Below are positions 11,935 through 12,554 of a stretch of 64,000 nt of DNA, in pieces. Position 1 is the stretch's first letter; every line of letters starts with the position of its first letter. A program made the translations under genes and the position numbers. The stretch lies in UHGV virus genome UHGV-0091736. The stretch is one strand, 5' to 3'. The notes beneath the pieces were generated by a model. It was not told the origin of the DNA, searched no databases, and worked only from the letters and a program-made list of their open reading frames with translations. This stretch comes from a virus.

Positions 11935-12554
11935 CAAAAGTTCAGATACAATCGCTACTTGTATCCCGCACCACTACATGCTGCTTACAGTTTCCTGCAA
12001 GATCGGACTATATCACCACACTATAGTGTGCCTACTGCTTCCATTTAAGTCAATGTTAATGACACCACTTGGCTGTACTTCGAGCTTACGCCCACCCTAG
12101 TCTCTGCACTTTCTAAACAGTCTTCCGTTTATAATTAAAGAAATTGTAACCTCTCTGAACATTCTCAGCGTTGGTTACCCACTCCAAATTAGATGCCACG
12201 TTATTGTCTCTTGTGTGGTCCAAGTGATCAATAAATGGGTAATTGTGGGGGTTAGGAACAAAGGCAATAGCTACTAATCGATGCATGTAGAATTTCTTTC
12301 TTTGTCCCGTATCCATTCTTAAGTAAACAGTTAAATATCCGTTGCCATGTCTGGCCCATAAGATAACATTGCCTGTTTTACTATTATAAATCGTACCATC
12401 AGGCCGCACCCAATAATTAGATGCACCTTCTATTTGTTTTTCTTCCATAAAGCCTCCTTGCTCTTGGAAGACTGTCTAGCTTAGCTCAGGATTGGCATAT
12501 CTTTCGACTTAGCTTTCCCTGAGTTCAATAGGTTTTACATGCGCAGGTTTGTTT
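11935..12554 (-). mobile_element. Group I intron (620 nt) with HNH ORF in the primase-helicase gene
   Basis: 5' exon ends AUGCGU (12555-12560). IGS GCGCAU (12539-12544). R GUGCAGAGACUAGGG (12095-12109). S GAUAUAGUCC (12005-12014). GAAA-tetraloop hairpin (11985-12000). Omega-G at 11935. In-frame ligation gives ..GSRSLMR|WCQC... Confidence 0.8.
12113..12448 (-). CDS. HNH homing endonuclease (intron-encoded)
   Basis: FIDHLDHTRDNNVASNLEWVTNAENVQRG. AAGGAGG RBS. Confidence 0.85.
   Translation of the reverse strand: MEEKQIEGASNYWVRPDGTIYNSKTGNVILWARHGNGYLTVYLRMDTGQRKKFYMHRLVAIAFVPNPHNYPFIDHLDHTRDNNVASNLEWVTNAENVQRGYNFFNYKRKTV

What the first reader, a model, noticed from the sequence alone, without database searches (positions are those of the whole stretch)
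11935..12554. Group I intron with HNH ORF in helicase motif H4, related to the polymerase intron with compensatory helix changes
The predicted intron is complete and has these elements.
- The 5' exon ends AUGCGU, and the IGS GCGCAU lies 10 nt downstream.
- HNH ORF at 12113-12448.
- R box GUGCAGAGACUAGGG and S box GAUAUAGUCC.
- A hairpin UUGCAG-GAAA-CUGUAA with a GNRA loop.
- Omega-G at 11935.
- Ligation gives ..FTGSRSLMR|[13 protein letters not shown].., matching the T7 gp4 H4 spacing.

Its 5' region is collinear with the polymerase intron: AAAC..N..G(C/U)GCAUGUAAAA..UGAACUC... One helix covaries between the two, CUCAGG/CCUGAG here versus CUCGGU/ACCGAG in the polymerase intron. That is the pattern expected for a conserved RNA helix.
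Basis: partly seen in the sequence, partly recalled or inferred. Interest (0 to 1): 0.65.

Follow-up and report, generated by a model that had tools for sequence, protein, structure and literature searches.

The report
Self-splicing intron in phage helicase gene
A 620-base group I intron carrying a small HNH nuclease gene interrupts the essential primase-helicase gene of a phiEco32-like E. coli phage; it is a well-preserved new example of a familiar kind of mobile phage element.

Summary
Window 11935-12554 (minus strand) is an exact 620-nt insertion relative to phiEco32. Removing it restores a 596-aa primase/helicase that differs from phiEco32 gp75 at 2 residues.

The insert has a complete group I core:
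- P1 with a U·G pair at the 5' splice site
- P3-P9 with the P3/P7 pseudoknot
- P7.1/P7.2, no P2, and a terminal G

Rfam's group I model scores 48.6 bits (E 2.7e-9), just under its 50-bit cut-off, so routine annotation misses it.

Seven independent metagenome assemblies carry the intron at the same site. Among five complete variants the first 106 nt are invariant, no substitution breaks a helix, and three base pairs changed on both sides. A 65%-diverged variant has rewritten P6a, P8 and P9 while keeping pairing.

The 111-aa ORF in the P6a loop matches I-HmuI residues 1-99, with the catalytic D74/H75/N96 conserved. It lacks the C-terminal DNA-binding domain, yet dN/dS is 0.02-0.07.

No deposited phage genome or searchable paper has this intron. 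It belongs to a mosaic IA2-like family found in polymerase, helicase and terminase genes of kuraviruses. Verdict: real, probably active, a new member of a known kind. Splicing itself is untested.

The parts
12555..14090 (-). Primase/helicase exon 1 (512 codons). Its last 6 nt, AUGCGU (12560-12555), form the 5' strand of P1.
   Evidence: Collinear with phiEco32 gp75 at 98% identity. If unspliced, the ORF reads on to a stop in the intron.
11935..12554 (-). The whole group I intron, 620 nt.
   Evidence: An exact insertion relative to phiEco32. Rfam RF00028 scores 48.6 bits, E 2.7e-9.
12539..12544 (-). Internal guide sequence GCGCAU (intron 11-16), the 3' strand of P1.
   Evidence: Pairs with exon AUGCGU, with U·G at the splice site. 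The guide changes to match the exon in the related introns.
12526..12532 (-). P3 5' strand CCUAUUG (intron 23-29). It contains the in-frame UGA stop of the exon-1 read-through.
   Evidence: 7 bp with intron 518-524.
12485..12523 (-). P4 (intron 32-38 / 64-70) enclosing P5 and P5a, which has a GAAA loop (42-60).
   Evidence: Rfam alignment, MFE fold. P4 covaries with the polymerase introns.
12466..12479 (-). P6a 5' strand (intron 76-89).
   Evidence: 12-14 bp with intron 429-442. There are 5 double compensatory changes in variant L010.
12453..12459 (-). Shine-Dalgarno AAGGAGG for the HNH ORF (intron 96-102).
   Evidence: Read from the sequence, 4 nt before the AUG.
12113..12448 (-). HNH endonuclease ORF, 111 aa, in the P6a loop. 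Its last 14 nt form the P6a 3' strand.
   Evidence: Pfam HNH_3 at 35.3 bits. Matches I-HmuI 1u3e residues 1-99, E 4e-12. dN/dS 0.02-0.07.
12098..12109 (-). J6/7 plus P7 5' strand GUGCAGAGACUA (intron 446-457; the 'R box').
   Evidence: Rfam alignment. Invariant in all related introns.
12041..12093 (-). P7.1 (intron 462-473, GUAA loop), a GUA linker, and P7.2 (about 483-514, core 492-506).
   Evidence: MFE fold. G464-C471 changes to U-A in variants.
12031..12037 (-). P3 3' strand CAGUAGG (intron 518-524).
12017..12030 (-). P8 hairpin CACAC-UAUA-GUGUG (intron 525-538).
   Evidence: The variant substitutions here fall in the loop only. A different stem sequence occupies the same place in L010 and the polymerase introns.
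12005..12014 (-). J8/7 plus P7 3' strand GAUAUAGUCC (intron 541-550; the 'S box').
11985..12000 (-). P9 hairpin UUGCAG-GAAA-CUGUAA (intron 555-570).
11945..11965 (-). P9.2 hairpin (intron 590-610).
   Evidence: Two pairs changed on both sides and one changed to G·U among variants.
11935..11935 (-). Terminal G (omega-G), the last intron base.
11680..11934 (-). Primase/helicase exon 2 (84 codons plus stop). It has no start codon context of its own.
   Evidence: Collinear with phiEco32. No SD or ATG lies upstream.

Best explanation
[quoted passage not shown] It is inserted between codons 512 and 513 of the primase-helicase gene of a phiEco32-like kuravirus, inside the conserved GS..L.R|....II..ER block of the helicase domain.

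Inferred mechanism:
1. The pre-mRNA folds so that GCGCAU (intron 11-16) pairs with the exon end AUGCGU.
2. An external guanosine bound in P7 attacks after the wobble-paired U.
3. The terminal G then takes that site, and the exons are ligated to encode the full 596-aa helicase.
4. Ribosomes reading unspliced RNA stop at a UGA nine codons into the intron.

The P6a loop carries its own ribosome-binding site and a 111-aa I-HmuI-like HNH nuclease. That enzyme most likely nicks intron-less helicase alleles near the insertion site during mixed infection, so that recombinational repair copies the intron in (homing).

Shown here: the exact insertion, the core anatomy, structure-preserving evolution, and selection on the ORF. 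Inferred: catalysis, nuclease activity and homing.
For: - Exact 620-nt insertion. Removal gives a protein with 2 differences from phiEco32 gp75 over 596 aa.
- Rfam group I model: 48.6 bits, E 2.7e-9 in the whole window. Its alignment shows P3, P4-P6, P8, P9 and the P7 strands.
- All 63 proposed pairs form in 5 distinct natural variants. Three pairs changed on both sides. Structures slid by 1-3 columns give 28-38% pairing and no double changes.
- The first 106 nt are invariant, while synonymous sites of the ORF diverge up to dS 0.89.
- The diverged variant L010 keeps P6a with 5 double changes, and has new P8 and P9 stems at the same positions.
- In related introns in other genes the guide sequence changes to match each exon.
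- The same insertion occurs in seven independent assemblies from different samples.
- HNH: Pfam HNH_3. It is collinear with I-HmuI residues 1-99, with D74, H75 and N96 conserved. dN/dS is 0.02-0.07.
- The P2-less architecture with P7.1/P7.2 and a GUA linker is the criterion used to assign the phiI/W31/Pf-WMP3 introns to IA2 (PMC3428280).
Against: - The Rfam score is below the curated 50-bit cut-off: 48.6 bits in the whole-window scan, 38.3 in a local scan with a worse alignment.
- P10 is weak (3 bp, GGU/ACC).
- The HNH protein lacks the roughly 65-aa C-terminal helix-turn-helix part of I-HmuI. Most homologues are 145-195 aa, so target recognition may be impaired.
- There is no RNA or biochemical evidence.
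- The compensatory changes among close variants fall in peripheral helices (P7.1, P9.2). Core helices simply do not vary within this set. Their covariation comes only from my hand-segmented comparison with more distant introns, because MAFFT could not align those regions.
Confidence: 0.88

Rival explanations
1. The intron splices, but its HNH gene is a decaying or re-purposed remnant. The intron is no longer mobile and is inherited only vertically or by ordinary recombination.
For: The ORF is 111 aa and aligns only to residues 1-99 of the 174-aa I-HmuI. Nearly all homologues carry extra C-terminal DNA-binding domains. The intron is rare: it is absent from all 50,697 deposited phage records.
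Against: dN/dS of 0.02-0.07 at dS up to 0.89 shows the protein is maintained by selection. The catalytic D74/H75/N96 are intact. The 65%-diverged L010 copy is also short (124 aa), so the short form is old and stable. Flanking exon identity between carriers is mosaic, as expected after repeated transfer. The intron-less target sequence in phiEco32 matches the flanks of carriers.
Confidence: 0.2
2. A free-standing HNH gene has split the helicase into two separately translated polypeptides that reassemble ('gene in pieces', as in the Aeromonas phage Aeh1 ribonucleotide reductase). No RNA splicing occurs.
For: Gene callers report two ORFs of 521 aa and 85 aa. Such arrangements are known in phages (Friedrich et al. 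2007, as listed in the reference list of PMC5418858).
Against: A full group I core surrounds the ORF, and its helices are kept by compensatory change. The 178 nt after the ORF and the 106 nt before it are far more conserved than synonymous sites. Exon 2 has no ATG or ribosome-binding site; the only in-frame 'start' is a UUG made of the last intron bases. The split would fall within the block that aligns to T7 gp4 GSGALRQLSDTIIALER.
Confidence: 0.03
3. It is an assembly chimera or artefact of the metagenomic source.
For: The exact sequence is known only from metagenome assemblies.
Against: The same insertion at the same base appears in seven contigs from different projects and assemblers, with 0-8% divergence (more in the incomplete L010 copy) and coherent substitution patterns.
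Confidence: 0.01

Closest known systems
Group IA2 intron in DNA polymerase gene 5 of T7-like phages phiI/W31, with the HNH enzyme I-TslI (Bonocora & Shub 2004, as cited in PMC3428280 and PMC11878797), and its kuravirus copy at the H|DE motif (this window about 1-511; complete in phage 1-6bf)
   Same: No P2. Same J1/3 GUAAAA, J3/4 AAC, CUAAGC at P6, P7 strands AGAGACUA / GAUAUAGUCC, and P7.1-GUA-P7.2. The ORF with its own SD sits in the P6 loop. 55 of 88 aligned positions are identical in the 5' part.
   Different: The host gene and site differ, so the guide sequence does too: GCGCAU against GUGCAU. The P3, P4, P5, P8 and P9 sequences all differ. The helicase intron has an extra P9.2. The HNH proteins are unrelated (E 16).
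Polymerase intron of kuraviruses KBNP1711 / KarlSchell_Bas89 at the FN|YGAG site (annotated as a joined CDS in Bas89)
   Same: Identical P5 region GAAAGCUAAGUCGAAAGAUAUGCCAAU. Near-identical P7'-P9 (GAUAUAGUCCGAUCUU[G/A]CAGGAAACUGUAAGCAG). Same L9.2 loop GUAGCG and same 3' tail UGAACU.UUG.
   Different: It has a P2 hairpin. Its P3, P4 and P6a sequences differ, its ORF differs (about 174 aa), and it sits in a different gene.
SPO1/SP82 DNA polymerase intron endonucleases I-HmuI / I-HmuII (PDB 1U3E)
   Same: The ORF aligns residue for residue with I-HmuI 1-99 (E 4e-12), covering the N-terminal beta-sheet domain and the HNH motif, with D74, H75 and N96 at the same positions. Both are encoded in phage group I introns in replication genes.
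   Different: The C-terminal 75 residues of I-HmuI (helical linker and helix-turn-helix) have no counterpart here. I-HmuI nicks 3 nt downstream of its insertion site and also cuts intron-containing DNA (PMC3428280). Nothing is known for this enzyme.
T4 td / nrdB / nrdD group IA2 introns
   Same: Phage introns in nucleotide or DNA metabolism genes with P7.1/P7.2, an endonuclease ORF looped out of a peripheral helix, and an in-frame stop soon after the 5' splice site (from my knowledge of these introns).
   Different: Their endonucleases belong to other families (GIY-YIG for td). They have P2. No detectable sequence similarity was found here.
DnaB-family helicase inteins (for example Ssp DnaB, inserted at RESG|SIEQD in the same motif block; from memory, not tested)
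   Same: A selfish element with a homing nuclease targets the same conserved helicase block, a few residues away.
   Different: Those elements splice at the protein level. This insert has in-frame stops and an RNA catalytic core.

Membership tests
Group I intron (Rfam RF00028 Intron_gpI) | Covariance-model score at or above the curated gathering score (50 bits) | tested here: inconclusive
   48.6 bits, E 2.7e-9 in the whole-window scan. 38.3 bits in a local scan with a poorer 5' alignment. Nothing at gathering. Related kuravirus and T7-like introns, including two whose host polymerase is annotated as a joined CDS, also score 31-48 bits. The cut-off is therefore too strict for this clade.
Group I intron | P1: an internal guide pairs with the 5' exon end, with U·G at the splice site | tested here: met
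   Exon AUGCGU pairs with intron 11-16 GCGCAU, 5 Watson-Crick pairs plus U·G. The guide co-varies with the exon in four related introns.
Group I intron | Conserved core: P3-P8 with the P3/P7 pseudoknot, P4-P6 domain, and P7 guanosine-binding helix | tested here: met
   All helices form: 63 of 63 pairs in 5 distinct variants. Rfam alignment. The P7 strands are invariant across the family.
Group I intron | Terminal G (omega-G) at the 3' splice site | tested here: met
   The intron ends ...CUUUUG at window 11935. The boundary is fixed by comparison with phiEco32.
Group I intron | Excision restores the host reading frame | tested here: met
   596 aa, with 2 substitutions relative to phiEco32 gp75.
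Group I intron | Guanosine-dependent self-splicing | not testable with these tools
   Needs in vitro transcription with GTP, or RT-PCR from infected cells.
Subgroup IA2 (phage type) | P7.1 and P7.2 between P7 and P3', joined by G-U-A (the criterion quoted in PMC3428280 for phiI/W31/Pf-WMP3) | tested here: met
   P7.1 at 462-473, GAAGUAC linker, P7.2 at about 483-514. P7.1 is supported by a G-C to U-A double change. I did not run subgroup-specific models.
HNH homing endonuclease, I-HmuI-like (NUMOD4 + HNH_3) | HNH (beta-beta-alpha-metal) motif with catalytic His and metal-binding Asp/Asn | tested here: met
   Pfam HNH_3 at 35.3 bits against a cut-off of 24.8. D74, H75 and N96 align with the same residues of I-HmuI. 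The roles of those residues are from memory of the 1U3E paper.
HNH homing endonuclease, I-HmuI-like | C-terminal helix-turn-helix DNA-binding domain | tested here: not met
   The ORF stops at residue 111 and aligns only to I-HmuI 1-99 of 174. Most homologues are 145-195 aa with PF22083 or other C-terminal domains. It works like a minimal version, not a full-length member.
HNH homing endonuclease | Site-specific cleavage of the intron-less allele, and homing | not testable with these tools
   Indirect only: strong purifying selection, and patchy distribution among near-identical phages.

The most novel reading that the evidence does not exclude
Kuraviruses host a modular family of group I introns whose parts (guide sequence, P4-P6 module, P7-P9 module, endonuclease gene) are reshuffled, and which jump between unrelated essential genes: polymerase at two sites, helicase at two sites, and terminase.

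The O18-011 element would be a caught-in-the-act ectopic move. Its 3' core is 84% identical to this intron, and it is followed by a 43-nt duplicate of helicase exon 1 (positions -48 to -6 from this insertion site). Yet it sits between the helicase and polymerase genes.

The 111-aa HNH, which lacks any C-terminal DNA-binding domain, would then be a minimal nickase of relaxed specificity that makes such moves possible.
Probability: 0.25. Interest if true: 0.55.

Novelty: new member of a known kind. Interest (0 to 1): 0.35.

Why it matters
- Annotation: the helicase of this phage is called as two fragments plus an unexplained gap. Rfam at its default threshold reports nothing, so such introns are systematically missed in kuravirus and metagenomic phage genomes.
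- Insertion site: this adds a replicative-helicase site, in a conserved helicase-domain block, to the list of phage genes invaded by group I introns. I found no report of one in the searchable literature.
- Experimental system: it offers a compact natural system. It has several sequence variants with compensatory changes and a minimal 111-aa HNH under strong selection. Close intron-less relatives such as phiEco32 grow on E. coli and could be used to test homing and the minimal requirements of an HNH homing nickase.
- Limit: it does not change what is known about how group I introns work.

Tried and rejected
- The Rfam scan at gathering thresholds returned nothing at all. It did not even report the tRNA that scores 60 bits in the permissive scan, so I used E-value scans.
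- Two exact-pattern scans of the IMG/VR viral contigs found no copy. The metagenome scan found two.
- MAFFT on ORF-deleted introns aligned the helicase variants correctly. It misplaced P3' and P8 of the polymerase introns. I therefore segmented the helices by hand and checked pairing by script. That part is my reading, not an independent prediction.
- I did not build a custom covariance model. The natural variants already gave a gap-free alignment for pair counting.
- Literature searches for introns in phiEco32, Kuravirus, Gordonclarkvirinae or phage helicase genes gave nothing relevant.
- The Bonocora & Shub 2004 paper is not held.
- A search for T7 gp4 'helicase motif 4' found nothing, so the H4 label rests on memory.
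- Intein reading rejected: the insert has in-frame stops.
- Group II intron rejected: there is no reverse transcriptase, and the core is group I.
- A Pfam scan gave no support for my passing guess that the PhoH ORF holds an intein.

Full report
**Context.** The window is part of a phiEco32-like podophage (Kuravirus, Gordonclarkvirinae), with the replication genes on the minus strand. A 2.5-kb query around the finding matches about 70 E. coli kuraviruses at 95-99% identity. In none of them does a single match cover more than 78% of the query. The best matches cover 75%, in two pieces.

**The observation.**
- blastn against phiEco32 (EU330206) shows that window 12555-14100 and 11601-11934 are directly adjacent in phiEco32. 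Exactly 620 nt, 11935-12554, are extra.
- The ends share no repeated base, so the boundaries cannot slide.
- Joining the flanks gives a 596-aa primase/helicase with two substitutions relative to phiEco32 gp75. The junction reads ...FTGSRSLMR|[13 protein letters not shown]....
- Unspliced, the reading frame runs nine codons into the insert and stops (..KQTCACKTY*).

**Group I anatomy** (intron position p = window 12555 - p).
- P1: exon AUGCGU with GCGCAU at 11-16, U·G at the splice site. There is no P2.
- J1/3 is GUAAAA.
- P3: 23-29 with 518-524.
- P4: 32-38 with 64-70.
- P5/P5a: within 42-60, with a GAAA loop.
- P6a: 12-14 bp, 76-89 with 429-442. It encloses a Shine-Dalgarno sequence (96-102) and the ORF (107-442).
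- P7: 451, 453-457 with 545-550.
- P7.1: 462-473, with a GUAA loop, then a GUA-containing linker.
- P7.2: about 483-514.
- P8: 525-538.
- P9: 555-570, with a GAAA loop.
- P9.2: 590-610.
- Terminal G at 620.
- P10 is only 3 bp (GGU of exon 2 with ACC at 7-9).

Rfam's group I model gives 48.6 bits (E 2.7e-9) in a permissive scan of the whole window and 38.3 bits in a local scan with a worse 5' alignment. Both are below the 50-bit gathering score, and the default scan reports nothing. Related introns in other kuraviruses and in a T7-like phage also score 31-48 bits; in two of those phages the interrupted polymerase is annotated as a joined CDS. The cut-off, not the intron, is the problem. Absence of P2 together with P7.1-GUA-P7.2 is the criterion used in the literature to place the phiI/W31/Pf-WMP3 introns in subgroup IA2 (PMC3428280).

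**Independent copies and selection.**
- Look-ups with the exact HNH protein and its 97%-identical cluster representative, plus one exact-pattern scan of metagenomes, recovered the same insertion at the same site. The carriers are kuravirus contigs from different projects (L009, L011-L017). A 65%-diverged version sits at the end of a 30.8-kb contig (L010).
- The five complete variants align without gaps at 92-97% identity.
- The first 106 nt never vary.
- The ORF carries 9-40 substitutions but only 2-3 amino-acid changes: dN/dS 0.02-0.07 with dS up to 0.89.
- The 178-nt 3' ribozyme part carries 7-12 substitutions.
- None of those substitutions breaks a helix. G464-C471 becomes U-A in P7.1, C594-G606 becomes U-A, and A595-U605 becomes G-C in P9.2. 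Two pairs switch between G·U and Watson-Crick. The rest fall in loops or joining regions.
- Formal counting on my structure: 100% of 315 cells paired and 3 pairs changed on both sides. Structures slid by 1-3 columns give 28-38% pairing and no such pairs.
- The core helices are invariant in this set, so they are uninformative there. The diverged L010 copy fills that gap. It keeps P1, P3 and P4, has 5 double changes in P6a, and has entirely different but still complementary P8 and P9 stems with the same GAAA loops.
- The intron's first 100 nt are more conserved than the flanking exons in every carrier.

**Relation to the polymerase intron.**
- The polymerase intron in this window starts at about 511 and is cut by the window edge 46 nt after its HNH ORF. 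Phage 1-6bf (98% identical) supplies the rest. It interrupts motif C (..DMH|DEGQ..).
- It is homologous to the intron at the same WVH|DE site of T7-like phages. That is the intron class described by Bonocora and Shub, as cited in PMC3428280.
- Helicase and polymerase introns share the P2-less plan, J1/3 GUAAAA, J3/4, the P6 start CUAAGC and both P7 strands. 55 of 88 aligned positions are identical in the 5' part.
- The paired strands differ while keeping complementarity:
  - P1: GCGCAU/AUGCGU against GUGCAU/AUGCAU.
  - P3: CCUAUUG/CAGUAGG against GUUGGUG/CGCCAAC.
  - P4: CUCAGG/CCUGAG against CUCGGU/ACCGAG.
  - P8 and P9 likewise.
The helix segmentation of the distant introns is by hand, because MAFFT misaligned them.
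- The 3' halves are otherwise not alignable, and the two HNH proteins are unrelated.
- Individual segments have closer relatives elsewhere:
  - The KBNP1711/Bas89 polymerase intron, at a different site, has an identical P5 region, a near-identical P9, the same L9.2 loop and the same 3' tail.
  - The O18-011 element shares 84% identity over intron 442-555.
- The family is mosaic.

**The ORF.**
- It matches Pfam HNH_3. It aligns residue for residue with I-HmuI (PDB 1U3E) over positions 1-99, E 4e-12, with D74, H75 and N96 at the same positions. From memory, those are the catalytic base and metal ligands.
- I-HmuI is 174 aa, and most of the 322 homologues found are 145-195 aa with extra DNA-binding domains. 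This protein ends at 111, and the L010 version at 124.
- The short form is thus conserved and under strong purifying selection. I read it as a working minimal nickase, not a decaying remnant. Its specificity and activity are unknown.

**Position in the helicase.** Alignment to T7 gp4 structures (E 1e-23) is gap-free through this region. It puts the junction between gp4 Q494 and L495, inside GSGALRQLSDTIIALER (numbering from the offset between the 1cr0 and 6n7i chains). From memory, this block is helicase motif H4 of the DnaB/gp4 family and lies a few residues from the classical DnaB intein site. I could not confirm the label in the held literature.

**Rivals.**
- A split 'gene in pieces' without splicing is very unlikely. 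The non-coding 284 nt are far more constrained than synonymous sites, helices are maintained by compensation, and exon 2 has no initiation signals.
- An assembly artefact is excluded by seven independent assemblies.
- The one serious open alternative is that the intron splices but no longer homes.

**Novelty.**
- No record among 50,697 deposited phage genomes contains more than 18% of the intron.
- Copies occur only in metagenome assemblies, including the GenBank WGS record MAUZ01000001.
- Searches of the held literature found no report of introns in kuravirus helicases, or of group I introns in phage replicative helicase genes.
- The element is otherwise a textbook phage group I intron with an HNH gene, so it is a new member of a known kind.

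Noticed in passing
window 40672-41418 (+), flanked by ORFs 40088-40699 and 41477-42403: A third group I intron (Rfam 45 bits, E 3e-8) splits the terminase large subunit gene. It holds a 192-aa ORF (40878-41456) with only faint His-Me finger matches, and that ORF runs through the P7 3' strand and P9. Intron-less kuraviruses match the flanks in 2-3 pieces. 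Its P7.1/P7.2 region resembles that of the diverged helicase intron in L010.
   Followed up: partly
window 1-511 (-): The polymerase intron at motif C (DMH|DE), with a 131-aa HNH ORF (47-442), is truncated by the window edge. It is present in many kuraviruses and is homologous to the T7-like gene 5 intron. The Rfam E-value scan of window 1-900 did not report it.
   Followed up: yes
L003 (Escherichia phage O18-011, LC553735) locus 2101-2950: An intron-like element with a 165-aa HNH lies between the helicase stop and the polymerase-exonuclease start. Its 3' core is 84% identical to helicase-intron 442-555. It is followed by a 43-nt duplicate (90.7% identity) of helicase exon 1, positions -48 to -6 from the H4 insertion site. 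This looks like an ectopic derivative of an H4-site intron.
   Followed up: partly
L002 (VTCCBPA_211) locus 1561-2295; L012 about 1600-2360; L017 near 4000: Some kuraviruses carry a different group I intron about 1 kb upstream in the same helicase gene (Rfam 32-38 bits). L012 and L017 carry both helicase introns.
   Followed up: partly
window 3630-5348 (-): The 572-aa PhoH-like ORF matches Pfam PhoH only over residues 386-569. The stretch from ..APAG|CVDKDTEF.. to ..FVTGN|CGKT.. looks like an intein in the P-loop, but Pfam gave no intein or Hint match. Unresolved.
   Followed up: partly
window 12506-12513 and 11953-11958 (-) (intron 42-49 and 597-602): The L9.2 loop GUAGCG contains UAGC, complementary to GCUA at 42-45 in the P5 region. 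The same P5 sequence and the same loop co-occur in the Bas89/KBNP1711 polymerase intron while the P9.2 stems differ. This may be a tertiary loop contact, or just shared ancestry.
   Followed up: no
window 12441-12471 (-) (intron 84-114): A local hairpin (-14 kcal/mol) pairs UCUUCCAAGAGC with GCUUUAUGGAAGA. It covers the HNH start codon and overlaps the P6a 5' strand. It competes with P6a and could tie HNH translation to intron folding. This is speculative.
   Followed up: no
window 27782-27858 (-): tRNA-Arg (anticodon TCT). It scores 60 bits in the permissive Rfam scan but was absent from the gathering-threshold scan. This is a tool inconsistency worth knowing about.
   Followed up: no
window 8748-9272 (-): A free-standing 174-aa HNH_3 endonuclease gene overlaps the end of the dCTP deaminase gene. 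It is another homing-type nuclease in the same replication module.
   Followed up: no
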